Assembly: GCA_965261735.1 (NCBI GenBank) | Contig: OZ253470.1 | Location: 4,122,980-4,186,979, forward strand | Origin: Alphaproteobacteria bacterium | GTDB lineage: Bacteria > Pseudomonadota > Alphaproteobacteria > SHVV01 | Direction of reading: 5' to 3' | DNA: 64,000 nucleotides | Shown: positions 6,309 through 54,164 of the stretch, piece by piece | Numbering within the stretch: position 1 is the first letter of the stretch | Layout: the number at the start of each line of letters is the position of its first letter | Position numbers and translations under genes: made by a program | The notes under the pieces: model-generated | Told to the model about the DNA's origin: nothing | Seen by the model: only the letters and a program-made list of their open reading frames with translations | Database searches by the model: none

Positions 6309-6310
6309 CG

Positions 6311-11328: not shown

Positions 11329-11438
11329 GGCGATTCCATTCGCTGGCGAGGAGCACGGGGGCCAGTATTGCGTCACCGGGTGCAGCCGATCAATGTCCTT
11401 TCGCGCCCCGACATCGCGATCCGCGGAGCGCCCGTCGG

Positions 11439-29703: not shown

Positions 29704-30615
29704 TTAGAACCCGCAAAGTTGCCGTGTGATCGTTACAGTGCCGATCTCTGAGCCGTCGCGACGCAGATAGACATGCGCGAGCGTTGCGCCTGCCTCGATC
29801 CAGGGACGCAGGCCAGAGCAGTTGCTCTGCGTGAGGCTCGTCCGCATCGAGGTCGAGAGAGCATGCCTATCTACTGATAGCTCGTAGATGTAGCGGAACG
29901 TCGATCCCTGCCCTTCGACCTGTTGAAGAGTCGTTATCTCATCCACCTGCTGCGGCGTTGGAACCTCAGCCGCCATCTGTTGGAGTGCGGCATCAAGACC
30001 TTGGCTGCGGATCAGGGAGGCGAGAAGCACCGATTGCTGCTCAGTGCCTGCCTCGGCAACCCTCCGCTCTACCTCGACCTCGGCGTAGGCGGACAAATAG
30101 ACGCCTGCGACGATCATGACGATACCGGACACGACGCCACGGCCATCTGTTAGCAGGGGAATGGCCGGAATACGGTTCGCGGACACTTCGTTCTTGGAGC
30201 GCGTTGCCAGCAGCCAGAGGTTGCGCGACCGGGATGAACGCGAGCGCAGCCATCCGACCATGCCCATAAGCATCGCGCGACCGTTCCATGGCGATGATCC
30301 CGATGAAGTAGCCGACCAATACTAGGGTGACGAGCTGCACCGCCAATAAGACCCATAGGTACGCCCCAGCCATCGCGGGCAGTGAATTAAGCCAGATGAG
30401 TTGCGTCGCGGCAGCGAAGAGGAACAAAAGCCCGAGTATGCAAAGTATGGCGCCTGCCGCAATTCACCCTTGCCGCGCGCTACGATGCCCGCGACCACCG
30501 CGCCCAGGACAATGAGACCATAGCCAATTAATCGAAGGTCGTTTTCTGTCTGAAAGACTAGCTGGATGGCAATATCTTCAAGCATCCGCTTGCCATCTTG
30601 ATGCTGGCGAGGCAC
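29704..30615 (-). pseudogene. Degraded membrane protein gene, fragmented over three frames
   Basis: Three co-oriented overlapping ORFs (30322..30615, 30041..30427, 29704..30273) that together read as one membrane protein with TM helices. Local GC is lower than surroundings. Confidence 0.35.
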
Positions 30616-30806: not shown

Positions 30807-31781
30807 CTATGCCGGGCGCGCCGGGGTTACGCCAACCATGCTGTCGCGGGTGACAAGCGCCGCGAGCTGTGCCGCCGACCATCCCTCGGTGCCCGCGGGC
30901 CGCACCGGGATCACGATGTAGCGGAGGTCGGCCGTGCTGTCGACGACCCTAATCTCCGTGTGCGCCGGGAGCTCGGTGCCGAACTCCTCGAGCACGCCGC
31001 GCGGGTCGTTGACGACGCGCGAACGGTAGGCGCGGCTCTTGTACCAGGCGGGCGGTACGCCGAGCAGGGTACGCGGGTAGCACGAGCACAGCGTACAGAC
31101 GACGACGTGATGCAGGTCGGGCGTGTTCTCGAGTGCCAAGACCGGCGGCGATGCGCTCATATCGACGCCCTGGCGTGCCGCGGCGGCCTTGGCGTCGTCG
31201 AGAAACTCGGCACGGAAATCGGGCACGACCCAGGTTCGCGCCACCAGGCCGGCGCCGAGTGCAGGCGTGCGCGTTTCCATGTCGTTGATCTCGCGCTGGA
31301 CGTCCTCCGCGGTAAAGATCCTTTTGTCGATGAACAGCTCGCGAAGGGCCTCGGCGAGAATCTCATAGTCCCCCGGCGGCCGATCCGTATGTTCGATGGC
31401 CTCGTGCTCGCCCGGCGCATGAACGTGATCGCCCTGACCGATCATCGCCGCGCCGGGGGCCGTCGCCGCGTGGTCGGCCTCGAGCCGGGCCCTTACCGCC
31501 GCTACCTTCAACGCCACCTCCTCGTCGGTGATGGCCTCGCGCTCTACCATCAGGGTCTTGAGCGAGTTGACCCAGCGCTCGTAGTAGAGGAATCCCCAAT
31601 AGGTCTCGGCCGGCGTGTCCTCATTGACGCGCCGTGACTCATCGACGCGAAAGTAGGCGCGCGAGGGATGGGTGAGCAGCATCATCATCGCGTCGACCCG
31701 CCGATCGGTGATCGTGGGATCGTGCTCGGCTGTGTCGATGGGGTCGGCGTCGAGGCCGCCCACGTCATGGTGTCCGCGCAT
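30807..31781 (-). CDS. Nitrile hydratase-like protein, fused beta(N-terminal domain)-alpha architecture with CTLCSC metal-binding site
   Basis: N-terminus MRGHHDVGG resembles NHase beta. C-terminal half carries VVCTLCSCYPRTLLG, the NHase/SCNase alpha Cys-cluster. Start taken at the internal Met of ORF 30807..31829. Confidence 0.6.
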   Translation of the reverse strand: MRGHHDVGGLDADPIDTAEHDPTITDRRVDAMMMLLTHPSRAYFRVDESRRVNEDTPAETYWGFLYYERWVNSLKTLMVEREAITDEEVALKVAAVRARLEADHAATAPGAAMIGQGDHVHAPGEHEAIEHTDRPPGDYEILAEALRELFIDKRIFTAEDVQREINDMETRTPALGAGLVARTWVVPDFRAEFLDDAKAAAARQGVDMSASPPVLALENTPDLHHVVVCTLCSCYPRTLLGVPPAWYKSRAYRSRVVNDPRGVLEEFGTELPAHTEIRVVDSTADLRYIVIPVRPAGTEGWSAAQLAALVTRDSMVGVTPARPA

Positions 31782-32030
31782 GAGGAACCTCTTGGCCAAA
31801 GATGCGCCGGCGCTCGCGCTGAGCCGCAAGTATATTTTCCGCCGGCGCGGGGCTCAACGTCCTAACGACCGGCGGGGGTAGGGCCTGGGGCCGCCCCGGT
31901 TGGCGCGCGCCGGCTGCGACTCTATGATCCGGGCCGAACTGGGGGCGTCGCCGTTTCATCACAGGATACAGGACCGGGTGCCGAACCTGCCGGCGGGCGC
32001 GAACGCCCGACGCGCTGGGGCCTCGTCGCC

Positions 32031-33197
32031 GTGATCCTCTTCGCCGGCGTCGCCGCCGCGACGCAGATCGGCAAAGTGCCGCCCGCGATCCCGGACATCC
32101 GCGCCGAGCTCGCTCTCGGCATGGTCGGGGCGGGATGGGTTGCCTCGATCATCAACCTGACGAGCGCCCTGTTCGGTATCATTATCGGCGCCCTCGCCGA
32201 TGCGCTGGGTCACGCCCGCATGCTGACGACTGGGCTCGCGCTGATCGTCATAGGCTCGCTCGTGGGCGCCAGCGCCGACGCCGGCAGTCTGCTGCTTTTC
32301 ACACGCTTCCTAGAGGGTGCGGGCTATGTGAGCATTACCGTGGCGGCACCGTCGCTCCTCCTGAGCGCGACGGGCGGGCGCGGGCAGCGGCTCGTGCTCG
32401 GCATATGGAGCGGCAGGTTCCCGGCCGGCATAGGCGCCATGCTCGTGATCTCGCCACTCTTCCTGACACCTTACGGGTGGCGCGGCCTGTGGTACGCGAG
32501 CGCCGCGCTCTTGGCGGTGGCGCTTGCCCTCGTGGCTGCCGCCCAGCGCCCGCGGCGAGCGCCCGGCGCGCTTACCGCCCCGGCGCCACCACGCCGGATC
32601 GCCGAGCTCGGCAGCCCACTACGCAGCCGGGGCGCTTGGCTGTTAGCCGGTTCGCTGACGATGTGGAACCTGCAGTGGCTCGCCATCATCGCCTGGCTGC
32701 CGACTTTCCTGATCGAGAGCGAGGGCTATACGACCGCGGCCGCGGCCCTGGTGGTTGCGCTGGTCGTGATCGCCGAATTGCCGGGCAACGTGCTGGGCGG
32801 CGTATTGATGCATCGCGGCGTTCCGTGCTGGGTGCTCTTGGCCCTCGGCACGACGACGGCCGGCGCGGCGGCGATCGGGATATTTTCGGCGGCGGTTCCG
32901 GTCGGGCTCAAGCTGGTGTTGGCGCTGTGTTTCGCGTTCGTGGGCGGGCTCGTGCCGCCGGGCGTGATGGGCGCCGTGCCGACCCACGCGCCGACGCCGG
33001 GCCTCGTCGGCACGATCATCGGGGTCGTGGTTCAGGTCTCCAGCATCGGGGCCCTGACAGGGCCGCCACTGATCGCCGCCGCCGTCGTACTGCTCGGCGG
33101 CTGGCATGAGGCGAGCTGGCTCCTGCTTGGCGCCGGCGCCGTGGGTGCCGTTTTCGCGCTCTCGATCCGCTCGCTCGAGCTGCGAATGCAGACTTAA
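32031..33197 (+). CDS. MFS transporter
   Basis: 12 predicted TM, MFS motif-like loops. GTG start is homologous to the paralog start. Confidence 0.7.
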   Translation: MILFAGVAAATQIGKVPPAIPDIRAELALGMVGAGWVASIINLTSALFGIIIGALADALGHARMLTTGLALIVIGSLVGASADAGSLLLFTRFLEGAGYVSITVAAPSLLLSATGGRGQRLVLGIWSGRFPAGIGAMLVISPLFLTPYGWRGLWYASAALLAVALALVAAAQRPRRAPGALTAPAPPRRIAELGSPLRSRGAWLLAGSLTMWNLQWLAIIAWLPTFLIESEGYTTAAAALVVALVVIAELPGNVLGGVLMHRGVPCWVLLALGTTTAGAAAIGIFSAAVPVGLKLVLALCFAFVGGLVPPGVMGAVPTHAPTPGLVGTIIGVVVQVSSIGALTGPPLIAAAVVLLGGWHEASWLLLGAGAVGAVFALSIRSLELRMQT

Positions 33198-33342
33198 CCC
33201 CGGCACAAAAGGACGTTGGCCGCGAGCGGAGGCTCGCCTAACATCGCGCCGCCGGGAGGGGTATCGGGCCATTACACAGCACCCAACAGTGGCGCCGCAG
33301 GCAGCGTCCGCGGAGCCCGTCGCGCCGACGCGATGGGGCATT

Positions 33343-34515
33343 GTGGCCATCGCCGTGGCTGCCGGCGTGGTCGCCGCGACCCAAGTCGGCAAGGCGCCGC
33401 CGTCGCTCCCTGACATCCGCGCCGAACTTGCGGTCGGCATGGTCGGCGCGGGTTGGATCGTCTCGATACTGAACGCCACGACCGCCACCCTCGGTATCGC
33501 CATCGGCACCATCGCCGACCGCGTTGGCCACAACCGGGCGCTCGCCTTCGGCCTCGCCCTGCTGGCCATCGGCAGCCTGCTCGGTGGTATCGCCGGCAGC
33601 GCCGGCGCGATGCTTCTCACCCGTTTTCTCGAGGGCATCGGCTTCGTCTGCATCATCGTCGCGGCACCGTCCCTAATCGCCGAAGCCGCATCGCTCCGCC
33701 ACCAGCGTCTCGCCCTCGGCCTCTGGAGCGCCTACTTCCCGGCCGGGATGGGGGCGATGATGGTGGCCTCGCTGTTCGTCCTCGAACCCTACGGATGGCG
33801 CAGTCTGTGGTTTGCGTCCGCGGTGCTGATCCTGGTTTTCCTCATGGTTTTTCTGGTGGTGGCGGCGCGCGGGCGGCGCGGTGGGCGGTTGCCTAGCGGT
33901 GCCCGTGCCGGGCGTGGGCGCGCGCTCGCGGATGTCCGGCGGGCGCTGGCGCGGCCGGGACCTTGGCTGCTAGCGTTTACGTTCACCGCCTTTTCGTTGC
34001 AGTGGCTGGGGCTCCTCGCGTGGCTGCCCACCTTTCTCGTCGAGCAGGGCTACACCCGGGCGACGGCCGCGCTGGTGACGGCGGTGGTCGTCGTGCTCGA
34101 GGCCCCCGGCAACCTTATCGGCGGCTGGCTCCTGCATCGCGGCGCGTCGCGCTGGACCCTGATATCGGTGGCGATGCTCGCCATGGCCACAATGGGCGCG
34201 GCGATCCTCGTGCCAGCCGTACCGCCCGTCGCGAAGGTCGTCTTGGCCCTCGCCTTCACGCTGATCAGCGGTCTCGTGCCGGCGGCGGTGCTGTCGGGCG
34301 CGCCCGTTCATGCCGCTGCGCCCGGCCTGATCGGCACCGTCAACGGGGTCATCGCCCAAGGCTCGAACCTCGGCAGTCTCATGGGGCCACCAGCGTTCGC
34401 CGCCGTCGTCGTGGGGTTCGGCGGTTGGCAGCATGCGAGCTGGTTGATGCTCGGGGCCGGGCTCGTCGGCGTCCTTCTGGCCCTGGCCATCCGCCTCGTT
34501 GAAGAGCGCCTGTGA
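33343..34515 (+). CDS. MFS transporter (tandem paralog)
   Basis: Aligns along its full length with 32031..33197. GTG start at the equivalent position. Track ORF 33106..34515 begins upstream and overlaps the previous gene. Confidence 0.7.
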   Translation: MAIAVAAGVVAATQVGKAPPSLPDIRAELAVGMVGAGWIVSILNATTATLGIAIGTIADRVGHNRALAFGLALLAIGSLLGGIAGSAGAMLLTRFLEGIGFVCIIVAAPSLIAEAASLRHQRLALGLWSAYFPAGMGAMMVASLFVLEPYGWRSLWFASAVLILVFLMVFLVVAARGRRGGRLPSGARAGRGRALADVRRALARPGPWLLAFTFTAFSLQWLGLLAWLPTFLVEQGYTRATAALVTAVVVVLEAPGNLIGGWLLHRGASRWTLISVAMLAMATMGAAILVPAVPPVAKVVLALAFTLISGLVPAAVLSGAPVHAAAPGLIGTVNGVIAQGSNLGSLMGPPAFAAVVVGFGGWQHASWLMLGAGLVGVLLALAIRLVEERL

Positions 34516-35142: not shown

Positions 35143-35630
35143 TCAGCCGCTCTGGAAGAGCTGGAGAATTGTGCCCGGCCCGGCATTGGCGATCGACAGC
35201 GACTGCATGCCGAGCTGCTGCTTGATCTGGAACGCCTGCAGGTTGGCGCTTTCCTCGGCGAGGTCAGCGTCGACCAGGTTGCCGAGACCTTCCTTGAGAA
35301 TGTCGACGAGTTTGCCCGTGAAATCGGCCTGGATTTCGATCCGCTTCGAGGACGAGCCGAGCGCTGCCAGCCGCGTTTGATCAGGTAGCCGCTGCGTGGA
35401 AGGGCGAGCTTCCCTTGCTGCACGAGCGGCCATAGCGTTTCCGCGATCAACTCAGCGTTCCTGTCCTGCTTCTGAGCCGTCTGTGACGCAAGCCACTCTG
35501 CGAACGCACGCTCGCCGATGTCCTCGCCGACCGACTTGCGCAGCGCATTCAGCTTGCGGAGCTACCCCTTAGTCAGGGAGTTCACATCAATCACGTTGGA
35601 AGACATCTGTGTCATGAGTCTGTCTCCAGC
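35143..35630 (-). pseudogene. Flagellin gene remnant (C-terminal D0/D1 fragment, with a putative N-terminal stub in another frame)
   Basis: C-terminal NLQAFQIKQQLGMQSLSIANAGPGTILQLFQSG matches the conserved flagellin C-terminus. Upstream sequence shifts frame and lacks the central domains. Confidence 0.55.
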
Positions 35631-36070: not shown

Positions 36071-37099
36071 CCTGCTTATCCGTGACATTCATCCTGCGAT
36101 GAGGAGGCGGTAGGGCATCGGGTCGGTTCGGGCGGCGCTATGGACGAAGCGCGGGATCATCGTCTGGAGTTGATAACGGCGGTTGTAGCGCCAGGCGAAA
36201 CTGACGAGGTAGCGCCCGGTGTGATCGGGGCCGAGCTTGCGATAGGTCCCGGTGACCGTGCACTTGATGTTGCCGAGCGCCGTATTGACCCATTTGAATG
36301 ACGCCACGCGGGCCGCCTTGCGTCTCGAGCCGGTGCGGATTGCCCGATGGCTGCAGGTGGCCTCGTCGAGTGCGCTCCAGCAGCCCAAGCGGTCCGTCAC
36401 AACCGCCGCGCCGGGGGCCAGCCAGTGCTTGGCGCCGCGCGCGATCTCGCGCTTGCGGAAGCCCTTGACCGGCGCCAGCTTCAGCTTGCGCGGGCGCCCC
36501 TCGGGACTGGTCGAGACCGCCGCCACGAAGGGCGTTTTGCCCGCCGCGCCGCGGCCCCGCTTGCCGCCGGAGCGCACCCCGCCGAGATAGGCGTCGTCCA
36601 TCTCGACCCGCCCCGTAAGCGCCGTCTCCCCCTCGCGCCGCGCCATCACCGCCATGATCTTGTGCTTCACGGCCCAGGCCGTCGGCTGCTTGACCCCGAG
36701 ACGGCGGCCGAGTTCCACCGACGAGATGCCGTTCTTCGCCGTCACGATCAGGTGGATGGCGGCAAACCAGACTGTCAGCGGCAGCTTGGTCGCGTGGAAG
36801 ATCGTGCCCGCCGTGGGCGATGTCTGCTTCTTGCACCGGTTGCATTGATAGAGACCCCGACCCGCCAACACGCAATGCTCCCGATGGCCGCAGCAGGGGC
36901 AGACGAAGCCGCCCGGCCAGCGCAGCCGGACCAGCGCCGCGCGGCACTGCTCCTTGGTGCCGAAGGCCTCCCGAAACGCCTCGTCGTTCAGACCACGCAC
37001 GCGCGATGCAACCTTGAACCCCATAACCGTGACCCCCTCATACAGAACATATTGAGAACATACATCCCCATAGGCGGAGTGTCACGGATAAGCAGGAAA
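36070..37099 (-). mobile_element. IS1595-family insertion sequence (ISXO2-like)
   Basis: Perfect 18-19 bp terminal inverted repeats TTCCTGCTTATCCGTGACA at 36070-36089 and 37080-37099, flanking a single transposase. No clear target-site duplication. Confidence 0.8.
36089..37024 (-). CDS. IS1595-family transposase (zinc-ribbon + DDE)
   Basis: CPCCG...CNRCKKQ zinc ribbon and ISXO2-like DDE core, 311 aa. Confidence 0.85.
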   Translation of the reverse strand: MGFKVASRVRGLNDEAFREAFGTKEQCRAALVRLRWPGGFVCPCCGHREHCVLAGRGLYQCNRCKKQTSPTAGTIFHATKLPLTVWFAAIHLIVTAKNGISSVELGRRLGVKQPTAWAVKHKIMAVMARREGETALTGRVEMDDAYLGGVRSGGKRGRGAAGKTPFVAAVSTSPEGRPRKLKLAPVKGFRKREIARGAKHWLAPGAAVVTDRLGCWSALDEATCSHRAIRTGSRRKAARVASFKWVNTALGNIKCTVTGTYRKLGPDHTGRYLVSFAWRYNRRYQLQTMIPRFVHSAARTDPMPYRLLIAG

Positions 37100-37196: not shown

Positions 37197-37811
37197 CTAA
37201 GTTGCTTTTGTGTATGGCCCGAAAACCCAGTAGAAGATTGATACTTTTGTATCGAAAGCCGTTCCTCCAACAATTTCTCCTCCTTCATAGATCGATTGAT
37301 CGCCAAAATACTTTTTTACGGCATCCGTCAACGCCATTACGCTGTGCGGCATGCAGCGCTCTATTTCACGCCTGTATTTTACGATCCCTCCTAGTTCTTC
37401 TGAAGGAACCGAGTAAGGGTGTGTGGCTAATAGCAATGTCATAATTTCTGGACTCACGTGTTTACCTTCCGAATAATCTATCATTTTCTTGACATCTTTC
37501 TGCACCTTTGTTGGATATTTATTTTCCGCTTTATTCGTGAACATATCGAAGGAATACATCGCCTTGGCTTCGACGAGCATGACCGGACTTGAATCTTCAA
37601 TTATGGCTAAATCAAATCTTTTCCATTCGCGGGCTATTTGAATGTTCTCTTCATCTCTCATTAAGCTCTGCAGGCTATACGCGATACGGTCGCGGATGGT
37701 TAGCTCTATTTTACCGGTTAGTGCTAGGTAAGCCAATTCGTTGCAGTCGAAGTCTGTATGTAGGTTCTTCATGGCTGAACAGAATAGTTTCGGCCAGTTA
37801 TGACGTGTCAT
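37197..37811 (-). CDS. Hypothetical low-GC protein, candidate PD-(D/E)xK-fold nuclease
   Basis: ~40% GC gene in a ~68% GC genome. FDLAIIEDSSPVMLVEAKAM fits the hhhD...hhhExK nuclease motif. No family recognised. Confidence 0.4.
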   Translation of the reverse strand: MTRHNWPKLFCSAMKNLHTDFDCNELAYLALTGKIELTIRDRIAYSLQSLMRDEENIQIAREWKRFDLAIIEDSSPVMLVEAKAMYSFDMFTNKAENKYPTKVQKDVKKMIDYSEGKHVSPEIMTLLLATHPYSVPSEELGGIVKYRREIERCMPHSVMALTDAVKKYFGDQSIYEGGEIVGGTAFDTKVSIFYWVFGPYTKAT

Positions 37812-38041
37812 ATTTAAATTACCTTTCTGTTATGCGATCTTACTGCAGCAGTTATCTTAAACACTAAGGGTATCCGTCATCATGAGCTGCGCCTGGTTTG
37901 GCGGGGGCCATTTCGCTTGATTCATGCCGCCATGGCTGACTGCTTGAGCATGGCGTAGTGGCGAGCTATTGTCAAAAGTTGGTGACGCAGGTTTCAGGCG
38001 GCGCGTTCGGTTAGCTTTTCTCCGTCCTTGAATTTGACGCC

Positions 38042-38821
38042 TTGAATGATGTCGGCGATCTGGTGCGAGCCGTCCAGGCGACGCCACTTCTTGCTGGCCG
38101 ACTGGCACAGCGGGCCACGCAGCGCACCGAGGCGCTGGAGCGTCTCGAAGCCGATCTCGAAACACTGATGCAGGTGGAGGGCCTGGCCATGCGCCCCGGC
38201 CCTCGCCAACCAATCGACGCGGCATTGGTCTCGCTCCTGTGCGAGGCCATTCTGACCCGCTGGACGGTGGAATTCCGCTACCTCGCCCAGTCGACAAGGA
38301 GATCAAGCCGCCAGCGTGTCGAGCCATACGGTTTGCTCTACGGCACCCGCGCCTTTCTGGTCGGGCGGACCGACTGGAGCGAGGAACCGCGCCTCTGGCG
38401 CCTTGCCAACATCGGCGATGCCCGGATCACCGGCGAGCGGTTCGAGCGGGACCCGGAATTCGACCTGCAGCACTACTCCAGACGGTCGTTCGGCACGTTC
38501 CAGGAAAAACCCGTTCAGGTGACCCTGCGTTTCGATGCCAAGGCAGCGCCGGACGCCTCGGCCTTCCTCTTCCACCCGGACCAGTCCATCGAAAAGCACA
38601 GCGACGGCACGCTCACGGTGCGCTTCAAGGCCGGCGGCATCAACGAGATGTGCTGGCATCTGGTCACTTGGGGCGAGAGCGTCACCGTTGAGAAGCCCGT
38701 CCGGCTGCGCCACCGCCTGGCCAGGATGTGCGCATCGCTCGCTGCGCATCCAGGATGTGCGCATCGCTCGCTGCGCATCATGGGGAAGATGCAAGTCCTT
38801 GAATTTCTTGGGCCGATTTAA
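38042..38821 (+). CDS. WYL-domain protein (WYL + WCX-like C-terminal), apparently lacking the N-terminal HTH, with a 29-bp tandem duplication altering the 3' end
   Basis: FRYLAQ...RVEPYGLLYGTRAFLVG WYL core. No HTH upstream. 3' end contains a perfect 29-bp direct duplication. Confidence 0.55.
   Translation: MNDVGDLVRAVQATPLLAGRLAQRATQRTEALERLEADLETLMQVEGLAMRPGPRQPIDAALVSLLCEAILTRWTVEFRYLAQSTRRSSRQRVEPYGLLYGTRAFLVGRTDWSEEPRLWRLANIGDARITGERFERDPEFDLQHYSRRSFGTFQEKPVQVTLRFDAKAAPDASAFLFHPDQSIEKHSDGTLTVRFKAGGINEMCWHLVTWGESVTVEKPVRLRHRLARMCASLAAHPGCAHRSLRIMGKMQVLEFLGPI
38722..38779. repeat. Perfect 29-bp tandem duplication (CAGGATGTGCGCATCGCTCGCTGCGCATC x2)
   Basis: Directly read in sequence. Length is not a multiple of 3, so it frameshifts the WYL-protein C-terminus. 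Confidence 0.8.
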
Positions 38822-39421
38822 GGCAATGTCGCGCCGGGCGGATATTCAACATTGCGAACAGAAGAAAATTGTGGGCCCTCCGGAAACGGCGGGAATGAAT
38901 GGCTCGAACACTACGTTCACGTGTTGATCGATCCGAGGACCGGCCAGATCTTCTACATCTGCCGGGTGAAGGCGGCAGGGTCTTCGCTCACGCCGATGGC
39001 ACGGTAACGGAAGACGATAACGACGCCGGGGATGGTGACGCGTTGTCTCCCAGGCGCAAGGTCATTCGACCGATAAGAAGCAACAGCCTGGAGCCGATCT
39101 ACGTCATACACAGGCACGGTATGCCGAAGGTCCTTGTCAGCGTTGGATGGACAAGGCCCACCTTGCCCGACAGCGCATCTTGATCAACTGCAGTCCCGGA
39201 CATTCCGCTTTGTCTTGCGGACGATTTTCCGAACAACGCTTCATGTATACGACCGAATATGCCGTATCTATGTGTTAGCGTCCCTCCATTGCATCAATCT
39301 GGACTGCGCCATACTGGCCGTTTGCGAATGAAGCCTGCTCGCCGTTAATCCTGCGAATAAGGCCTCAACTCTTTACTCACAGGCGCTGACGGGAGACGAG
39401 GTTGCGACAGGGGGACATCCG

Positions 39422-39970
39422 ATGAATACCGAAGCCGGAAACCCGGACCCAGAACATCCAGGCCCGATCCATGCCGGCTGGAACACATCTGAATTCTTTG
39501 AAAATGCCACAGCAGAGGACGTGGCGCATTGCTTGGGATCCGGCGCGGATGTGCAGGCGCGTGACAAGTACGGATGCTCGCCCCTGCACTTTGCGGCTCG
39601 CCTCGGCTCTCTGGAGGTGATCGCGGCGTTGCTCGCCGCCGGCGTCGATCCAAAAGCGTCTGCCGAAGATGGACGCATCCCCCTGCATTTTGCGGCTCGC
39701 TGGGGCTCCCCGGGGGCAGTCGCGGCGCTGCTCGCCGCTGGTGCCGACCTGAAAGCATGCGACAGGCGTAGACGCACACCGTTGTTCTGGGCAGCACTTC
39801 GCGACTGCTCTTGTGCGGTTATGGCGCTGCTCGCCGCCAGCGCCGATCCGAAGGCGTGTGCCGAAGACGGATGCTCGCCCCTGCACGTCGCGGCTCGCTG
39901 GGGCTCTCCGGATGCGATCGCGGCGCTGATCGCCGCGCGTGCTCTTGGTCGTGATGAACGAGGCGTTTGA
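39422..39970 (+). CDS. Ankyrin-repeat protein (4-5 repeats)
   Basis: Repeated GCSPLHFAARLGSLEVIAALLAAGVDPKA units. Confidence 0.65.
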   Translation: MNTEAGNPDPEHPGPIHAGWNTSEFFENATAEDVAHCLGSGADVQARDKYGCSPLHFAARLGSLEVIAALLAAGVDPKASAEDGRIPLHFAARWGSPGAVAALLAAGADLKACDRRRRTPLFWAALRDCSCAVMALLAASADPKACAEDGCSPLHVAARWGSPDAIAALIAARALGRDERGV

Positions 39971-40410
39971 AACCCTGGAGATCTGGGAAGCAGAGCGTAG
40001 CGCAGTCGTGGAAGCGCTGACTGCGCCGGGAAGCAAGGCACGCAATAGACGCGGCTCCTTGGCCGTCTCTAAGTTCAAGCAAATTGGGAAACGGGTGTGG
40101 CCCAGCAATCATAGGACGGGTATGCGGCTCGACCCGGAGTTGACGGGACCGTGTGGCTATTCTGGCGGAGTCTGGCCGGTCTGTTGTCCTCTGAGCTCGA
40201 CGAGACCGATTCCCAAGCCACAAACTATCAACGGCGGCGTGATCTTCTCCCGTTGGATTGGTCGATCCTTAGGTTGTGGATTGAGGAGGGCGGGAGATGG
40301 CAAGAAACCGTCAATGCACTGACATTCAAACCGGACCACTTTTAGGGGGTCACTCCAAATTTTATCGGGATTACCAACAGTTTTTCCTTGCTTTCAGAAA
40401 GAAACAAGAG

Positions 40411-40869
40411 ATGTGTGCGTACTATTCGCCGGCTATCTATTCCCTTATTGATCACCGCGGGGACATGGCCCAATACGGAACGACCGTTGAGGCGTGCCCG
40501 GATACTATTGACGAGGTTCTCAAGGCACGAAACATGGGTGAGACAGTACATGAAGGTTGCTCTCCCTCATCACTTCCCCCGAACAGTCAATCTTTGTCTG
40601 ATATGATCGCATCGGATGACTGTACTGCCGCCGCATTACATCTGGCATGTTTTGTCGGTTTCCTTGCCCTCAAATCAGGCTCTGCCACCATTGAGGAAGT
40701 ACTGGGGGACACCGGCCTCATCCATGAGATGGTACACCGCATGTGTAGCGTAGATGAAGAGGATGATTATCCGTTCATCGAGAGCCAGGAGGAATTGGCG
40801 GATATGGCTCACCGCATAGAGCGGACAATACCTGGTTACCCATTCACACCCACTATGTATCGTCCTTGA
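40411..40869 (+). CDS. Hypothetical protein
   Basis: ORF in a lower-GC stretch (~50% GC). No recognised domain. Confidence 0.3.
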   Translation: MCAYYSPAIYSLIDHRGDMAQYGTTVEACPDTIDEVLKARNMGETVHEGCSPSSLPPNSQSLSDMIASDDCTAAALHLACFVGFLALKSGSATIEEVLGDTGLIHEMVHRMCSVDEEDDYPFIESQEELADMAHRIERTIPGYPFTPTMYRP

Positions 40870-41637
40870 CCATCGCAATAGGCGCATTCGTGGTGGTGAG
40901 CCAACCACTGGCGGGACCGTGGCGCATTCGGTGAGGACCATGCACGAGCGCGTGCGTCACCGGAGCCGACAGGCGACGGCTTGCCCGAGCACTTCAGCGT
41001 GGGGGACCGGGAGAGTCTCGCCAACCTCGACCCCGGCGCCCGTCAACGGGTACTGGACAAGCACCGGGCCATGGAGGCCGTGCAGAGCGGCGAGATCCTC
41101 GAACACCACGCGGACGCCTTTCAGCATGCAGAGCAGGGACAGATCGCGGCACAGCAGGTGCAATTCGAGCAACAGCGGATCCAGGCCGCGCTCGTCAGCG
41201 GGACACCTGCCGCGGCCGCTCCGCTCACGGGCTATCTGCTCGGCGCGCCCGAGGCCCATTGGAGCGATGCGGTCTCGTTCAGCGTCCGTTTCTTTGCATC
41301 GCTCATCCCATGTCCTCCTTTTCCGCTGTCTGATTAGCTGCCGCGCGGGCGGAAAACAGCAGCGCGCAAAGAGGTCTCGCACCTGGAGGCTCGGGTAGAC
41401 GGGTGTGCCTATTATCGGCAGGGGGCGGCCTACAAGGAGGGACGAGTGAAGAACCCAGACAAGTTTCGAGAACTCGTGTATGCCCCGCGGATATGTCCAA
41501 ATATGACGCATCCGCGTGTTAGTGTCTCTTTTCGCAAATGCCAGCCCCAGATGAATGTGCAGTTGAAGTAACGTCAGGGGTGGACATAGCAAAGTTCGCC
41601 GGGCGGCAAGAATCTAAAGCACGAAAAGAGGCATGAA

Positions 41638-41898
41638 ATGGATCTAGAAGATACGAAACCTACGCCGGTCCCAGAACCCCATCTCTTCGACAACGACAAA
41701 TTGCGGCTAGATGCTCCATATCGTCTTCTGTCAGTTTCGGGAGTGGACACTCTCCCATCGAAGCAGGCCCTGGCTGTGACTTTGGAATTTTCCGGCCCTC
41801 AGGAACCCCTGACTTTTGTCCTGTCGCTTCCTGCGGCGGCGCAAATGGTGAATCAGCTTCGAATGGCCGTTGACGAGTGTATGTATCAGATTTACTGA
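41638..41898 (+). CDS. Hypothetical small protein (86 aa)
   Basis: ATG with AAAAGAGG RBS. No recognised domain. Confidence 0.35.
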   Translation: MDLEDTKPTPVPEPHLFDNDKLRLDAPYRLLSVSGVDTLPSKQALAVTLEFSGPQEPLTFVLSLPAAAQMVNQLRMAVDECMYQIY

Positions 41899-42304
41899 AT
41901 GCAGCCCCCGCACCAGGCCCCTTAAAGCCGTAACAGGTCCTGTTGCGGATGACCCCTCTCTTGCGCAACGCCCTGCAGAACCTTTTCAGGAACAGGCCAG
42001 GTCCGGGCGCCGGGTGACTCCGATTGGCGTCTGCACTCTCGCGATCCCGCCCGCCATATCGTGGGTGATGTGGGAAGCAACACTGCCGTACGTGCTCGGC
42101 GTCGAGGCGCTGTGGGCGGGGGTATGGGCGTTCGCCGGGGCGGGCGCGGCCTGGAGAGTGTTTCAGTGGGGATTGGTTGCCGCGGTAGTGGCAGCGATCT
42201 ACTGGTTCCTGTCCAACCTCTCGTGAGGCCGCGCTCCGCCCCGGCGGGAGGTTGGGGATGCTGCGCGCCTTGGCCGACGGGACTGTTTTTGAAAGGATCA
42301 GATT

Positions 42305-42691
42305 ATGAGCGACGAGAAAATCATCATCGGGATTGAACACGCGCTTCTGACTCTCGCGCGGGCAGATCAAATTCTTGAGGACATTACCCCGTCCAGAGAG
42401 AGTGATGAGGATGATGAGGGTGATGATGTGATCCCGTGGCAGGCCGCACACGTGTGGATCTTCAGGGCGATGAGCTTGCTGATAGATTCACTGGATGGTA
42501 TCGAAACGGTGACCTTTTCGTCGGATGAAAGAATTCCCATTGCAAAAACCACCCAACCCTATGCGTACTTGCCCGCCCGGTATGCAGCGATAGCGGACAG
42601 GTACAAGGACCAAGCCCGCGAGGTTGAGGATCTTTTTGATGAGATTAAGGATGATTTGCGCGAATCTTCTTCTCTCGATGACGATGAGTAG
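42305..42691 (+). CDS. Hypothetical acidic protein (128 aa, Asp/Glu-rich tail)
   Basis: ORF with highly acidic termini (SRESDEDDEGDD ... SSLDDDE). A possible anti-restriction-like or DNA-mimic composition, which is speculative. Confidence 0.3.
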   Translation: MSDEKIIIGIEHALLTLARADQILEDITPSRESDEDDEGDDVIPWQAAHVWIFRAMSLLIDSLDGIETVTFSSDERIPIAKTTQPYAYLPARYAAIADRYKDQAREVEDLFDEIKDDLRESSSLDDDE

Positions 42692-42722
42692 CCGGCGCCG
42701 CGCTCACCAAACTGAGGCGGCA

Positions 42723-43214
42723 ATGCGGTACGAACAAAGTGGACGGCCACGATTGAAGTCTTCCGTCAGGACCGGGTGCATGTATGCGCTCGCGGCGGTC
42801 CTTGTCGCCGGCTTGGCGAGCCCGTCCTTTGCCGGCAAGCGCCATCGTCATCATCACGGCCACCACCACGGCTATGCTGCGGCAGCCATGGCCGGTTTCG
42901 GCATGTTGAGTTTGATGCTGAGCCGCCCGAGGGCGGACTATTACCGGTATGGAGGGTGGATGCCCACGAGGATCTATGGTCATCCACCAACAGTCCACGT
43001 CGTGCCGCAGGTGCGATATGTCGTTAGGCCAACACCACCATCGCGAATAGCTCCCGTCCGGCAACGCGCAACACTGCCTCCGGGCTGTCTGATGATCCGT
43101 GAATATCAGACGCGGATCATCATCGGCGGACGAGAGGTTGAGGCCTACGGCGATGCGTGTATGCAGCCCGATGGATCCTGGAGGCGCGGGCCACCCAAGC
43201 TTGTGCCTCACTGA
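42723..43214 (+). CDS. Secreted His-rich small protein
   Basis: Signal-peptide-like MYALAAVLVAGLASPSFAG followed by KRHRHHHGHHHG. Start is uncertain. Confidence 0.35.
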   Translation: MRYEQSGRPRLKSSVRTGCMYALAAVLVAGLASPSFAGKRHRHHHGHHHGYAAAAMAGFGMLSLMLSRPRADYYRYGGWMPTRIYGHPPTVHVVPQVRYVVRPTPPSRIAPVRQRATLPPGCLMIREYQTRIIIGGREVEAYGDACMQPDGSWRRGPPKLVPH

Positions 43215-43232
43215 CCTCTGGATAGTCGTGAG

Positions 43233-44038
43233 GGTGCTGTCAACTTAACGAAGGCAGGTCGCAGTTGAACGTCTGAACTGAGCGGCTCAAGCAGCAGCGG
43301 TCACGGTCCGCCACGTGTTCATCGCGTCACCGCGGAATTGGCGCATTGTCTTGCGAGTGATCAGATGACGTTGGACATTGAAGGTGTTGTAGATGGCGGC
43401 GTGGGTGGAGAGAAACCTTTGCGCCGATCCTGATGACTTGAAGCCCTGCATCCTGCGTTCTCGTTGTCGAACCGGCAGGTGCGAATTCTCCGCCCGATTA
43501 TTGCTCCGTCCGCCGGTAACGTGTTTCCCCGTCATGTTGAGATCACGCAATGCTGCCCCGTAAGATGGCAGTTTATCGGTCACCACCTTATTCGGCGCAT
43601 ACCCCTGCTTCTTGAGCAGTTTGCGCATCAGCTTGAGTGCTGCTTTCTTGTTCCTCCGGGACTGAACCGGGATATCCAGCACCTCACCCTCGCTGTCCAC
43701 CGCCCGCCATAGATACATCCGTTTTCCGTTGATGGAGGAAAACACCTCATCAAGGTGCCACCGGTCGTCTGGTCGAGGGCGTGATTGTCTCAGTTTTCGG
43801 GCATAGGCCTGCCCAAACTTTAAAGACCAGCGCCGTATCGTCTCGTAAGAAACATCGACACCACGTTCAGCGAGCAGATCCTCCACATCGCGGTAACTGA
43901 GCGGAAACCGGAAACACAGCCAGACGGCGCGCTGGATTATCTCTGCAGGAAACCGATGTCGGCGGTAGCTGATCTTGTTCATAACAGGAAGCTACTCGCC
44001 ACCCGCAGCTGACACCAGCCAGTTACCGTGACAGCACC
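43233..44038 (-). mobile_element. IS6-family insertion sequence
   Basis: ~806 bp. Terminal inverted repeats GGTGCTGTCA... at 43233 and (reverse complement) at 44038. Single IS6-type transposase. Confidence 0.7.
43287..43982 (-). CDS. IS6-family transposase
   Basis: MNKISYRRHRFP N-terminus and DDE region typical of IS6/IS26-like transposases, 231 aa. Confidence 0.85.
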   Translation of the reverse strand: MNKISYRRHRFPAEIIQRAVWLCFRFPLSYRDVEDLLAERGVDVSYETIRRWSLKFGQAYARKLRQSRPRPDDRWHLDEVFSSINGKRMYLWRAVDSEGEVLDIPVQSRRNKKAALKLMRKLLKKQGYAPNKVVTDKLPSYGAALRDLNMTGKHVTGGRSNNRAENSHLPVRQRERRMQGFKSSGSAQRFLSTHAAIYNTFNVQRHLITRKTMRQFRGDAMNTWRTVTAAA

Positions 44039-44155
44039 GATCGCCGAAGCGGTGCCCGAGGAAGATCCGGCCGAGCTCATCCGTGAAGTGCTGATTCTCG
44101 AAAGGGAAATCACAAAGGGACTCGAATTACTCTTGGCAGAGGTGGAGGGCCAGTA

Positions 44156-45976
44156 ATGGGCGAGCAATCTGCTTTCACGATCGAATCGAACGACTTGGCG
44201 ATCGCCCAGATTTTCAAGGATTTCTACGCCGTCCCCGACTTCCAGCGCGAATACGTCTGGGAGCGCGAGCACGTCGAGAAGCTCCTCGAGGACGTGCTCG
44301 ATGAGTTCTATGACGAAGATGCTCGGCTGATCGAAGGCCCAGAATACTTCCTGGGCAGCATTGTCTCCTGCCGTGACCATGAAGGGATCTTTCATCTCAT
44401 CGACGGCCAACAACGGATGACGACCATCTACCTTGTTCTGTGCGCTGCGCGTGACGCCTTGAGAGATGCCGACGATAAGCCCACGCGGGTCCTCGAGGCG
44501 CAAATTTCCTACACCTACTCCGATCCCAAAACGGGCGAAGACGTAGAGCGACATCGGCTCACCCTTCAGTACGAGGACAGCGATGGCATCTTGGAAAAAC
44601 TCGTAAAGGCTGACCAACCAGTCTCAGGCCTTCCTGAAACCACGGAGTCCGTGAGGAAGATACTCGCCGCCTATCGGACGATTCGAGAGTTTTTCTCGGT
44701 AAACCTGAGGGACGAACCAGCCGCGATCAAGAGATTCCTGGTGGCCTTCACCGGCCGCATCAAGCTGATCCGCATCCTCACACCGACGATCACCAACGCC
44801 CTGAAGGTGTTCGAGACCATTAACGATCGTGGAGTGGGCTTGAACGCCGTGGATCTCCTGAAGAACCTCCTCTTCATGAAGACGTCCACCGAGGATTATC
44901 CGAAGCTCAAGGATCGTTGGTAAATCCTGATCGACGTTCTCGATGACTGTGGCGAAAAGCCGCTGCGGTTTCTTCGTTACTACATCATGTCGCACTACGA
45001 GATCGACTATAGCCGCAGCATTCGCGAAGACGAAATCTACGACTGGTTCGTCAAGAATACGGAGGTCTGCGGCATCGACCATGATCCACTCGGTTTTGCT
45101 GAAGCGTTAACCGAGTGCGCACGGGCACACGCCAATTTCCTCTCTTCCAAGGACCGCCAGGGCAACGACAACCGATATCTTCGGAACCTCACCCTGCTCG
45201 GCGGCGCGCTTCGCCAGCAGCACATCCTCCTCCTTGCCGGTCGCCATCTCGCGCCCGATCTCTTCGACCAGCTGTGTCGCACCATCGAGAGCCTTTTCTT
45301 CTGTTACATCATCACGCGCGAACCGACCAAGACCTTCGAGCGAAATTTCGCCCGATGGTCGGGGGAGTTGCGCAGCTGCGAATACGCGGCCGCCCTTGAT
45401 GCCTTCCTGAACAAATATCTCATAGCGGACCTACGGGGGCGCACCGAACGGTTCGACTTCGCCTTCCGGGAACTCACACAATGGAACATCCAGCAGTACC
45501 GCATGCGGTACATCCTGGCGAAGCTCACCGAGTACATCGAGGAACAGGCATGGGGCAGCCCCACCTACGCCCAACTGGACCGCTACACGGACAAATCGGT
45601 CCACGTCGAGCACATACTGCCGCAGACACCCACTGCGGAGGTTCGGGAGGCATTCGACAAACCGGGCGAGTATGATGACTACCTCAGCCGGCTCGGTAAC
45701 CTTACGCTGCTGGAGAAGACCATCAACAGCTCGGTCTCCAACGGCAGCTATACCGACAAGGGGCCGGGGTATAGGCAGTCCTCTTTCCTGCTTACCAAGT
45801 CGCTAGCCGAGAAGCCGCACGTCGGGACCAACACTCAGCTGAACCGGGCGGTGGCCGATCTGATTCAGTTCGATTGCTGGAACTCGCAGACGATCGTACA
45901 GCGCCAGGAAATGCTGACCGCGCTGGCGCGAAAGGTATGGGACATGCCGTCGGGCACCAAGGAGGCAACGGGATGA
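44156..45976 (+). pseudogene. DUF262 (ParB/Srx-like, DGQQR) + DUF1524 (HNH-like) GmrSD-family type IV restriction-like gene, split by an in-frame TAA at 44921-44923
   Basis: ORF 44156..44923 has DGQQR (DUF262). ORF 44987..45976 has VEHILPQ (DUF1524). Both are in the same frame, separated by one stop codon. Confidence 0.6.
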
Positions 45977-51364: not shown

Positions 51365-51771
51365 GAGGACGGCGAAAGGCGGAGAGCCGTCGGGGATGTG
51401 GGCAGGTCGGAGGACAGGTAAGGGCAAACGGTCAATCGAGACGGGATCGGGAAAACCAGTCGTGGTACACGGAGCTTTCAAGCCCGCAAAAATGATCTTG
51501 GACCCGGTCCGCGCATCTCCATACAGGCCCGCGGCGTCAAACCAGCCGCATCATGAGGCCGGACAGATGACTGCACCTGACCGCATGTGCCGAACCGTCC
51601 GAAGAAAGGCTTGCATCAACGGAGGCGTCCACAGATGTACCACGGGCTCGGTGGTAGCTTGTCCGCATAGTCCATGGGAGGGACCCGCGCGCGGGGCGAC
51701 GCGCCCTCCGCGCGGCTGGCGGCGGCCCGCGCGTGAGAGGGGCGTGTGGGCCCACGCGGGCAAGCGGGGGG

Positions 51772-54031: not shown

Positions 54032-54164
54032 CTCGTGCCCCTCGTCGCAACCGACAAGGGACCATGAGTGGCACAATTTTGCGCCGCCGCGACCGGACCG
54101 CCCGGCCGCCTCGCGTGGAGCATTATTCCTCCGCCGTTAACAACCGCCGCTTGAACCATCAAAG

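What the first reader, a model, noticed from the sequence alone, without database searches (positions are those of the whole stretch)
30807..31781. Single-polypeptide nitrile-hydratase-like protein (beta N-domain fused to alpha subunit with CTLCSC site)
Canonical NHases are alpha/beta heteromers with an activator. Here one 325-aa ORF carries a beta-like N-terminus (MRGHHDVGG) and the alpha-subunit metal-binding Cys cluster VVCTLCSCYPR. No second subunit or activator is adjacent. The neighbouring genes are two MFS transporters. Fused NHase-like proteins are poorly characterised, with possible nitrile, thiocyanate or unknown substrates.
Basis: partly seen in the sequence, partly recalled or inferred. 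Interest (0 to 1): 0.6.

Follow-up and report, generated by a model that had tools for sequence, protein, structure and literature searches.

The report
Nitrile hydratase with half its beta fused
This gene encodes a cobalt-type nitrile-hydratase-like enzyme in which only the front half of the usual beta subunit is fused to the alpha subunit. This layout is conserved but I found no study of it, and it shows how far this industrially used enzyme can be pared down.

Summary
Window 30807..31781 (- strand) is a 324-aa ORF with NHase_beta_N at residues 1-102 (E 9e-16) and NHase_alpha at 139-319 (E 1.6e-75). It carries the cobalt-type claw VCTLCSCY.

The C-terminal half of the beta subunit (betaC, PF02211) is missing from the protein and from all six frames of the 64-kb window. 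The closest unfused relatives are three-gene operons, betaN-betaC-alpha, like the characterised Streptomyces canus AnhD/AnhE/AnhA enzyme.

The same genome holds such an operon about 0.9 Mb away. The fusion aligns end to end with that betaN (residues 1-110) and then with that alpha from its own Met1 (residue 113). So it looks like an operon that lost exactly the middle gene.

The architecture recurs in more than 70 protein clusters, at 42-58% identity in the 65 aligned. Active-site residues are invariant (R50 = betaArg52, Y66 = betaTyr68, the Cys claw). There is no conserved neighbour and usually no betaC nearby. AlphaFold gives one compact fold (pLDDT 92.6, pTM 0.87).

Most likely it is an activator-independent cobalt hydratase. 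Whether it works alone or borrows betaC in trans is unresolved. It is a new variant of a known kind, of moderate interest.

The parts
30807..31781 (-). Complete ORF: 324-aa betaN-alpha fusion protein plus stop codon
   Evidence: The nucleotide sequence is identical on four sister contigs, and the exact protein occurs on 8 contigs.
31452..31781 (-). BetaN domain, residues 1-110. It is equivalent to a whole stand-alone betaN subunit (AnhD type). It carries R50 (= betaArg52), E54 (= betaGlu56), Y66/Y67 (= betaTyr68/69) and W70 (= betaTrp72).
   Evidence: Pfam PF21006 E 9e-16. Profile against PDB 3qxe_B E 2e-16, with residue mapping. 43% identity over all 110 residues of the paralogous betaN. Invariant columns in 66 fusions. 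Foldseek rmsd about 2 A to NHase beta and SCNase beta.
31368..31451 (-). Junction and His-containing linker, residues 111-138. M113 aligns with Met1 of the paralogous alpha. H121 is invariant, and H119 and H126 are nearly invariant.
   Evidence: AlphaFold pLDDT is about 55 here.
30810..31367 (-). Alpha domain, residues 139-324
   Evidence: Pfam PF02979 E 1.6e-75. PDB Co-type NHase alpha chains E about 1e-55. Foldseek TM 0.85-0.90, rmsd 1.3-1.9 A. 65% identity to the paralogous alpha P0044.
31080..31097 (-). Metal-binding claw C229-T-L-C232-S233-C234, followed by Y235-P236-R237
   Evidence: Read directly. C, L, C, S, C, Y and P are invariant in 66 fusions. R237 sits at the position of alphaTrp116 in PtNHase (alignment; PDB titles).
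31788..31793 (-). Shine-Dalgarno-like AAGAGG, 6 nt upstream of the ATG
   Evidence: Read.
31829..31857 (-). Sigma-70-like promoter match (TTGAGC-17-TATACT) upstream of the fusion gene
   Evidence: This is a consensus match only: 2 found against 0.2 expected.
32031..33197 (+). Divergent neighbour: MFS_1 transporter, 388 aa. The association with the fusion is uncertain.
   Evidence: Only weak similarity to aromatic-acid and CynX/NimT subfamilies, far below cut-offs.
33289..34515 (+). Second MFS_1 transporter, 408 aa. The association with the fusion is uncertain.
   Evidence: The pair is kept in the P0012 and P0017 loci and absent from the P0011 locus.

Best explanation
The gene encodes a cobalt-type hydratase of the nitrile hydratase family. 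It arose from a three-gene 'split-beta' operon (betaN-betaC-alpha, the AnhD/AnhE/AnhA or ToyJKL type) by loss of exactly the middle gene. That loss joined the last codons of betaN to the start codon of alpha.

Shown here: the alpha domain keeps the whole Cys-Thr-Leu-Cys-Ser-Cys claw. The fused betaN domain keeps the second-shell residues that line the active site in canonical enzymes (Arg50 = betaArg52, Glu54 = betaGlu56, Tyr66 = betaTyr68, Trp70 = betaTrp72). The chain is predicted to fold as one compact unit.

Inferred: the claw binds Co(III), and two cysteines are oxidised to sulfinate and sulfenate. A C-N triple bond bound to the metal is then hydrated to an amide. The covalently attached betaN also plays the metallochaperone role shown for free AnhD, so no separate activator is needed. 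The protein probably works as a homo-oligomer without betaC. That would leave a more open active site, missing one of the two usual beta arginines, and therefore a substrate range or rate unlike classical enzymes. The substrate is unknown.
For: Domain architecture and claw.

Origin by loss of betaC. The closest unfused relatives in about 60 of 80 genome loci are betaN (about 100-115 aa), betaC (about 95-110 aa) and alpha as separate ORFs. The same genome holds such an operon, with Pfam calls PF21006 / PF02211 / PF02979. Fusion residues 1-110 align with the entire 110-aa betaN (43% identity), and residues 113-322 align with alpha from its Met1 (65% identity).

Functional constraint. 66 fusions at 42-58% identity keep D6, G8, G9, R50, Y61, Y66 and the claw invariant. 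The residue mapping onto P. putida beta was verified through the PDB mutants E56Q and H71L.

Fold. pLDDT 92.6 and pTM 0.87, with only the linker uncertain. Both domains superpose on solved NHase chains.

Stand-alone gene. No betaC, activator or second alpha in the window. None within +/-7-10 kb in the loci of P0012, P0017, P0011, P0022, P0025, P0043, P0034 and P0099, nor in L006-L009, L011, L013 and L031.

Precedents. The three-subunit S. canus enzyme needs no activator, and AnhD acts as metallochaperone (PMC7329996). The ToyJ alpha subunit alone is reported sufficient for catalysis and cysteine modification (Nelp 2014, as cited in PMC7329996).

The gene is nucleotide-identical on four sister contigs of an IS-ridden genome in which its neighbours are disrupted.
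Against: In S. canus, betaN plus alpha without betaC (AnhDA) bound cobalt but had only 0.2-2% of full activity on acetamiprid, and alpha alone had none (PMC7329996 Table 2).

The arginine supplied by betaC in canonical enzymes is absent (its role is from memory).

A betaC gene exists elsewhere in this genome. One fusion clade keeps betaC immediately downstream (L032, E 3e-37). The P0003 loci have a full canonical NHase 6 kb away.

No whole genome could be scanned, so 'no betaC anywhere' was never shown for any fusion-bearing organism. No substrate clue emerged from gene context.
Confidence: 0.5

Rival explanations
1. The fusion is a two-thirds enzyme. It must recruit a free betaC subunit encoded elsewhere (here from the paralogous betaN-betaC-alpha operon) to form a (betaN-alpha)+betaC complex equivalent to AnhDEA or ToyJKL.
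For: A 94-aa betaC gene lies on the same contigs as the fusion. L032 has betaC directly downstream of its fusion. AnhDA without AnhE is nearly inactive. Stand-alone betaC genes are common, with at least 1227 hits.
Against: The paralogous betaC sits in a tight operon with its own betaN and alpha, 0.9 Mb or more away. No betaC was found within +/-7-10 kb in about 15 other fusion loci from several clades. The fusion's alpha is only 65% identical, and its betaN 43% identical, to the paralogue's, so interface compatibility is not guaranteed. Matching longest-contig lengths between betaC clusters and fusion clusters found no further co-residence, although the list is truncated.
Confidence: 0.25
2. 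The protein catalyses a reaction other than hydration of an organic nitrile. One option is thiocyanate hydrolysis (SCNase-like); another is hydration of a small or anionic C-N compound such as cyanamide. This concerns the substrate and is compatible with either subunit model.
For: R237 occupies the position of alphaTrp116 in P. thermophila NHase (alignment; PDB 3vyh 'aW116R'). By the same +3 offset from the last claw cysteine, it matches gammaArg136 of SCNase (PDB 3vyg 'R136W'; the SCNase ligand numbering is from memory). R51 adds a second arginine next to R50, as in the RRR stretch of SCNase beta. The best single-sequence PDB match of the N-domain is SCNase beta. The neighbouring MFS genes show faint CynX/NimT similarity.
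Against: The NCBIfam thiocyanate hydrolase gamma model scores 192 against a cut-off of 291, lower than the NHase alpha model at 231. The position matching SCNase betaArg90 is Ser49 and varies across the family. CSCYPR/K is the norm across the whole split-beta subfamily, 81 of 88 alpha ORFs, including a Streptomyces locus of the AnhDEA kind. That subfamily's characterised member is a genuine nitrile hydratase. The MFS similarity is generic, 43-49 bits against a cut-off of 406.
Confidence: 0.1
3. The protein is not itself a catalyst. It is a maturation factor: a cobalt-loaded alpha held by a betaN 'swapping chaperone', analogous to AnhD2A or alpha-epsilon2, that serves the paralogous NHase.
For: Holo-AnhD2A activates apo-AnhDEA by self-subunit swapping. 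This genome has a paralogous three-subunit NHase and no separate activator annotated next to it.
Against: A covalent fusion cannot hand over its alpha subunit without proteolysis. The paralogous operon already has its own betaN. The active-site second-shell residues R50, E54, Y66 and W70 are conserved as in catalytic beta subunits. The N-domain scores as beta (49 bits) rather than as accessory protein (13.7 bits).
Confidence: 0.08
4. It is a decaying pseudogene remnant, or an NHLP-type RiPP precursor that merely resembles an alpha subunit.
For: The NCBIfam NHLP leader model scores 57.5 against a cut-off of 50.9. The genome is IS-ridden with broken neighbouring genes.
Against: The alpha domain is full length with an intact claw. 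The protein is 324 aa, not a leader of about 80-100 aa plus core peptide. The architecture is conserved over more than 70 clusters in several bacterial orders, with invariant catalytic residues. The gene is intact and identical in all sister contigs.
Confidence: 0.02

Closest known systems
Three-subunit (split-beta) Co-type nitrile hydratase: Streptomyces canus AnhD/AnhE/AnhA, and toyocamycin NHase ToyJKL
   Same: The sequence subfamily is the same. The alpha is 65% identical to the alpha of such an operon in the same genome, and the N-domain equals a whole AnhD-type betaN. Both have the CTLCSCYPR claw, the cobalt-type signature and no dedicated activator gene.
   Different: Here betaN is covalently fused to alpha, and the betaC (AnhE-type) gene is deleted from the locus. 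In S. canus both beta fragments are needed for activity.
Eukaryotic beta-alpha fused nitrile hydratase (Monosiga brevicollis type)
   Same: Single polypeptide in beta-then-alpha order, with histidines in the linker and no known activator (PMC2603476; PMC3323583; PMC7193024).
   Different: The eukaryotic proteins are about 450-530 aa with both subunits reported complete. The present protein is 324 aa and lacks betaC. Long fusions appear as a separate set of 420-600-aa hits.
Canonical alpha2beta2 Co-type NHase (P. thermophila 1IRE, P. putida 3QXE)
   Same: The alpha fold matches (TM 0.85-0.90, rmsd 1.3-1.9 A). The claw is identical, and the betaN fold and key residues are shared.
   Different: The present protein has no betaC and no activator. 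It has Arg instead of Trp at alpha position 116, and Arg instead of His at beta position 71.
Thiocyanate hydrolase (SCNase) of Thiobacillus thioparus
   Same: The beta subunit is split, so a free betaN-like subunit exists. There is an Arg three residues after the claw and a run of arginines in betaN.
   Different: SCNase has three separate subunits plus an activator. The equivalog score is far below cut-off, and the betaArg90 equivalent is not conserved.

Membership tests
Nitrile hydratase alpha subunit family (Pfam PF02979) | Sequence match to the alpha-chain model above the gathering score | tested here: met
   253 bits against 27.2, covering profile positions 3-184 of 184.
Nitrile hydratase alpha subunit family (Pfam PF02979) | C-X-L-C-S-C metal-binding claw | tested here: met
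   C229 T L C232 S233 C234. C, L, C, S and C are invariant in 66 family members.
Cobalt-type NHase | V-C-T-L-C-S-C-Y signature (Thr and Tyr), as opposed to the iron-type C-S-L-C-S-C-T. The rule is established knowledge, recalled from memory. | tested here: met
   VVCTLCSCYP. The best PDB matches are all Co-type alpha chains. Metal content itself was not measured.
NCBIfam TIGR01323 nitrile hydratase subunit alpha (equivalog) | Score at or above the curated cut-off of 249.85 | tested here: not met
   231.5 bits.
Canonical heteromeric NHase | Complete beta subunit (N-terminal helical part plus C-terminal SH3-like PF02211 domain), encoded next to alpha | tested here: not met
   BetaN is present in cis. 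BetaC is absent from the protein and from all six frames of the 64-kb window, best E = 2.
Canonical heteromeric NHase | Dedicated activator or accessory gene in the cluster | tested here: not met
   There is no second betaN-like ORF in the window. TIGR03889 scores only 13.7 bits inside the N-domain. Fe-type activators (unrelated ATPases) were not specifically searched for.
Canonical heteromeric NHase | Bound Co(III), Cys-sulfinate and Cys-sulfenate, and nitrile-to-amide activity | not testable with these tools
   Needs protein expression, ICP-MS, mass spectrometry and activity assays.
Three-subunit split-beta NHase (AnhDEA / ToyJKL) | Separate betaN, betaC and alpha genes in one operon | tested here: not met
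   At this locus betaN and alpha are one ORF and betaC is missing. A true three-gene operon lies elsewhere in the same genome.
Three-subunit split-beta NHase (AnhDEA / ToyJKL) | Sequence affinity to that subfamily rather than to classical alpha/beta pairs | tested here: met
   65% and 43% identity to the paralogous alpha and betaN. The nearest unfused hits in genomes are three-gene clusters. The CSCYPR motif is shared. A quick NJ tree interleaves fusions with these alphas, but it has no support values.
Eukaryote-type full beta-alpha fusion | Both subunits complete in one chain | tested here: not met
   No PF02211 domain, and 324 aa against about 450-530 aa.
Thiocyanate hydrolase gamma (TIGR03887) | Score at or above the curated cut-off of 291.45 | tested here: not met
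   192.3 bits.
Thiocyanate hydrolase | The two substrate-pocket arginines, betaArg90 and gammaArg136. Their role is recalled from memory; the PDB titles for 3vyg and 3vyh show that the gamma136 / alpha116 position was swapped experimentally. | tested here: inconclusive
   The gammaArg136 equivalent is present (R237). The betaArg90 equivalent is Ser49 and is variable. R237 is shared with bona fide NHase relatives.
NHLP leader-peptide RiPP precursors (TIGR03793) | A short alpha-like leader without the metal claw, followed by a core peptide | tested here: not met
   The model scores 57.5 against 50.9. However, the protein has a full alpha domain with an intact claw and no core peptide.

The most novel reading that the evidence does not exclude
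The betaN-alpha fusion is a fully autonomous, activator-free, single-chain cobalt hydratase. It has dispensed with betaC, and so with one of the two 'essential' beta arginines. It uses its more exposed active site on a substrate class that classical nitrile hydratases do not take. This would define a minimal natural NHase and a new branch of the family.
Probability: 0.3. Interest if true: 0.6.

Novelty: new variant of a known kind. Interest (0 to 1): 0.45.

Why it matters
Nitrile hydratases are used at very large scale, for example to make acrylamide and nicotinamide. Their need for two subunits plus an activator complicates expression and engineering.

A natural single chain would do three things if it is active:
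- It would show which parts of beta are really needed.
- It would test the proposed dual role of betaN as active-site wall and metallochaperone.
- It would offer a compact scaffold with the cobalt claw, the key beta residues and probably a built-in chaperone.

The locus also gives a clean evolutionary snapshot: a three-gene operon collapsing into one gene by precise loss of the middle cistron, with the parental type still present in the same genome.

If the protein is inactive without betaC, the finding is a modest variation in subunit packaging.

Tried and rejected
The full-length alignment was used instead. It mostly returned unfused relatives, which turned out to be informative.

(2) The 'solo-subunit NHase' of strain THI201, mentioned in a review, was followed up. 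It is described as related to a copper thiocyanate dehydrogenase of about 489 aa, modelled on PDB 5f75, so it is not an NHase homologue. Rejected.

(3) The idea that the MFS neighbours are CynX-type cyanate transporters was rejected. They score 43-49 bits against a cut-off of 406, and aromatic-acid symporter models score equally weakly.

(4) A riboswitch or other RNA element near the gene was looked for. Rfam gave no hits at gathering threshold anywhere in the window.

(5) A search with the paralogous betaC, then matching longest-contig lengths to those of fusion clusters, found no further co-residence. The list is limited to 120 clusters, so this is inconclusive.

(6) Arg237 as a fusion-specific replacement for the lost betaC arginine was rejected. 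The same Arg or Lys is present in 81 of 88 alpha ORFs of the subfamily that still have betaC.

(7) The afdb50 fold library was unavailable. The Nelp 2014 paper is not held, so it is cited only through PMC7329996.

(8) Organism identification via a DEAD-box helicase gave only 'Rhizobiales/Hyphomicrobiales bacterium' at 73% identity.

(9) The NJ tree of alpha domains suggests fusions fall in several groups interleaved with unfused alphas. It has no support values, so single versus multiple origin is left open.

Full report
OBSERVATION

The ORF is real. On the - strand, 30807..31781 encodes 324 aa plus a stop. It starts MRGHHDVGG and contains VVCTLCSCYPR; the claw codons lie at 31080..31097.

The ATG at 31781 is the likely start. 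An AAGAGG sits 6 nt upstream (read). Homologues begin at the same MR..HD.GG. A sigma-70-like match on the - strand ends at 31829, where the alternative TTG start would lie.

Pfam finds NHase_beta_N at residues 1-102 (E 9.2e-16) and NHase_alpha at residues 139-319 (E 1.6e-75). It finds no NHase_beta_C. NCBIfam places the protein below the equivalog cut-offs of both nitrile hydratase alpha (231.5 against 249.85) and thiocyanate hydrolase gamma (192.3 against 291.45).

The best solved relatives of the C-terminal part are cobalt-type alpha chains (E about 1e-55). A profile of the N-domain aligns end to end with residues 1-92 of the P. putida Co-NHase beta chain (E 2e-16) and with SCNase beta (E 2e-15).

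WHAT IS MISSING

I built an HMM of the beta C-terminal domain from 62 ORFs found in related loci. I searched every stop-to-stop ORF of the window in six frames. Nothing matched; the best E was 2 to 35 depending on the set. With betaN and alpha profiles, only the finding's ORF matched (3e-41 and 4e-88). So the window holds no second subunit and no betaN-like accessory protein.

WHERE IT COMES FROM

A scan of one genome per species returned a few true fusions. These were L006 Stellaceae, L007, L008 Rhodospirillales, L009 Roseomonas, L011 Falsiroseomonas, L013, L031 SAR116 and L032 Rhodobiaceae.

It also returned many loci in which the match spans about 1200-1380 bp. Reading these showed three consecutive ORFs:
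- betaN of about 100-115 aa with its own stop;
- betaC of about 95-110 aa in another frame, with motifs GH.RTP.Y.RGK and IYEHWLEP;
- alpha of about 210 aa.

This is the arrangement of the characterised three-subunit cobalt enzyme of Streptomyces canus. There AnhD is betaN, AnhE is betaC and AnhA is alpha, there is no activator, and AnhD doubles as metallochaperone (PMC7329996).

The exact window protein occurs on eight long-read metagenome contigs. The same contigs also carry a three-gene operon: betaN of 110 aa, betaC of 94 aa and alpha of 215 aa (P0044). The distances are as follows:
- On ERZ28763636:contig_9 (5,000,832 bp), the operon lies at about 3.97 Mb and the fusion at about 0.08 Mb. 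That is 3.9 Mb, or 1.1 Mb if the contig is circular.
- On ERZ25073897:contig_14, the two are about 0.9 Mb apart.

Fusion residues 1-110 align with the whole paralogous betaN, including its C-terminal tail (43% identity). Residues 113-322 align with the paralogous alpha starting at its Met1 (65% identity). The fusion therefore looks like a three-gene operon from which exactly the betaC cistron was removed.

IS IT A FUNCTIONAL FAMILY?

Among the best 120 clusters (at 90% identity), more than 70 have the same two-domain architecture and a length of about 307-396 aa. At 50% clustering, about ten representative clusters of 307-339 aa cover the query end to end. A separate population of 420-600-aa proteins matches in two or three stretches; these are presumably full beta-alpha fusions of the eukaryotic kind.

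In an alignment of 66 fusions (42-58% identity to the window protein), the following are invariant: D6, G8, G9, R50, Y61, Y66, H121 and the claw C229, L231, C232, S233, C234, Y235, P236. Nearly invariant are R51, E54 and W70; Y67 was nearly invariant in the 30-sequence alignment.

Mapping onto the P. putida beta chain gives R50 = betaArg52, E54 = betaGlu56, Y66/Y67 = betaTyr68/69 and W70 = betaTrp72. The register is confirmed by the PDB mutants beta-E56Q and beta-H71L in the same alignment.

AlphaFold with this alignment gives pLDDT 92.6 and pTM 0.87; only residues about 110-130 are uncertain. Foldseek superposes the C-terminal part on Co-NHase alpha chains (TM 0.85-0.90, rmsd 1.3-1.9 A). It superposes the N-terminal part on NHase beta and SCNase beta (rmsd about 2 A over 95-102 residues). 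I had no coordinates, so the native-like docking of betaN on alpha is inferred from pTM only.

GENE CONTEXT

The two divergent MFS genes recur in the P0012 and P0017 loci (53% identity), but the whole region is syntenic there. In the syntenic P0011 locus the pair is missing. Other clades have quite different neighbours:
- a Rieske oxygenase and an Amidohydro_2 gene, with a canonical NHase 6 kb away (P0003);
- TctC and BLUF (Falsiroseomonas);
- PEP mutase (Stellaceae);
- Nramp and LigT (Chloroflexi-type);
- an IS element and short-chain dehydrogenase fragments;
- a CitMHS transporter.

Only L032 has betaC directly downstream of the fusion (E 3e-37). So there is no conserved partner. The MFS genes match CynX/NimT and aromatic-acid symporter models only at noise-like scores. 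Rfam finds nothing in the window.

MECHANISM

Shown: an intact cobalt-type claw, conserved second-shell residues supplied in cis, a confident compact fold, and purifying conservation across orders.

Inferred from the families: Co(III) binding, cysteine oxidation, and hydration of a metal-bound C-N triple bond. The betaN domain would also act as a built-in chaperone, so no activator is needed, as for AnhD.

The open question is betaC. Two points argue against autonomy. AnhDA binds cobalt but has at most 2% of full activity. A betaC is encoded elsewhere in this genome. Two points argue for autonomy. BetaC is absent around about 15 fusion loci of several clades. The ToyJ alpha subunit alone is reported sufficient for catalysis and modification (cited in PMC7329996).

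I favour an autonomous enzyme at about 0.5. I give betaC in trans about 0.25.

SUBSTRATE

The substrate is unknown. R237 occupies the position of alphaTrp116 in PtNHase, and by the same +3 offset that of gammaArg136 in SCNase (alignment; PDB titles for 3vyh and 3vyg; SCNase ligand numbering from memory). However, this Arg or Lys is the rule in the whole split-beta subfamily (81 of 88 alpha ORFs), whose studied member hydrates nitriles. The equivalent of SCNase betaArg90 is not conserved.

COMPARISON AND NOVELTY

The protein works like, and descends from, the three-subunit split-beta cobalt NHases. It is not a member by gene organisation. It is not the eukaryotic full fusion, because betaC is absent. 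It is neither an SCNase nor an NHLP precursor.

Public annotation calls such proteins 'nitrile hydratase subunit alpha', or sometimes 'beta'. In the searchable literature I found the eukaryotic fusions, engineered fusions and the three-subunit enzymes. I found no description of a natural betaN-alpha protein lacking betaC. That is absence in an open-access subset, not proof.

Verdict: a real, conserved but uncharacterised variant of a known enzyme kind, of moderate interest.

Noticed in passing
window 29704..30585 (- strand): The 293-aa membrane-protein gene just downstream of the fusion has no Pfam or NCBIfam match. In the window it is broken into three frames by two single-base indels relative to the intact copy in L001, one of them in a T run. 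In sister contigs the same gene is cut by IS elements (DDE_Tnp_1, IS21, IS1595). This could be real decay or long-read assembly error.
   Followed up: partly
window 35371 and beyond (35143..35433 flagellin remnant; 36089..37024 IS1595-type transposase): Synteny with all sister contigs ends at 35371, inside a flagellin gene. The window continues with a glyoxalase-like ORF and an IS1595-family transposase, so this strain has a rearrangement or insertion there.
   Followed up: partly
window 37197..48944: A defence-island-like stretch. It holds a low-GC3 204-aa ORF with no family match (37197..37811), a WYL/WCX regulator (38042..38821), a GmrSD restriction enzyme split into N-domain (44156..44923) and C-domain (44987..45976) ORFs, and an AAA_15/AAA_21 ATPase (47211..48944).
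   Followed up: no
window 50342..54076: IS110-family transposase (50342..51364) and an IS21 pair: istB at 51772..52680 and istA at 52529..54076. Together with the IS copies in sister contigs, this indicates a genome with active IS expansion.
   Followed up: no
window 8638..9912 (+) and 9922..11376 (-): Two convergent amidase-signature (PF01425) genes lie about 20 kb from the fusion gene. Amidases usually partner nitrile hydratases, but these are too far away and too common a family to link them.
   Followed up: no
window 5325..6434 (-): The RtcB-like ORF matches only profile positions 1-225 of 426, so it may be truncated.
   Followed up: no
L097 7374..8648 (ERZ28763636:contig_9, about 3.97 Mb); likewise L098-L102: The same organism carries a complete betaN(110)-betaC(94)-alpha(215) split-beta nitrile hydratase operon, next to isochorismatase and glyoxalase genes and upstream of unannotated ORFs and IS1595 fragments.
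   Followed up: yes
L012-L085 (most loci): Three-gene split-beta NHase operons (betaN, betaC and alpha as separate ORFs) are very common across Alpha-, Beta- and Gammaproteobacteria, Binatia, Dehalococcoidia, Actinomycetes and others, although only one or two have been studied. Stand-alone betaC proteins number at least 1227 clusters.
   Followed up: partly
L088 (P0017) and L103 (P0022), sample ERZ25072854: Two different betaN-alpha fusion proteins (53% and 54% identical to the window protein) come from the same sample. Both clusters list a 10,021,757-bp longest contig, which suggests two paralogous fusions in one large genome.
   Followed up: no
L032 10001..11246: In a Rhodobiaceae MAG the betaN-alpha fusion is followed directly by a betaC ORF, giving the gene order betaN-alpha, betaC. 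This is a different, two-gene packaging of the same three parts.
   Followed up: partly
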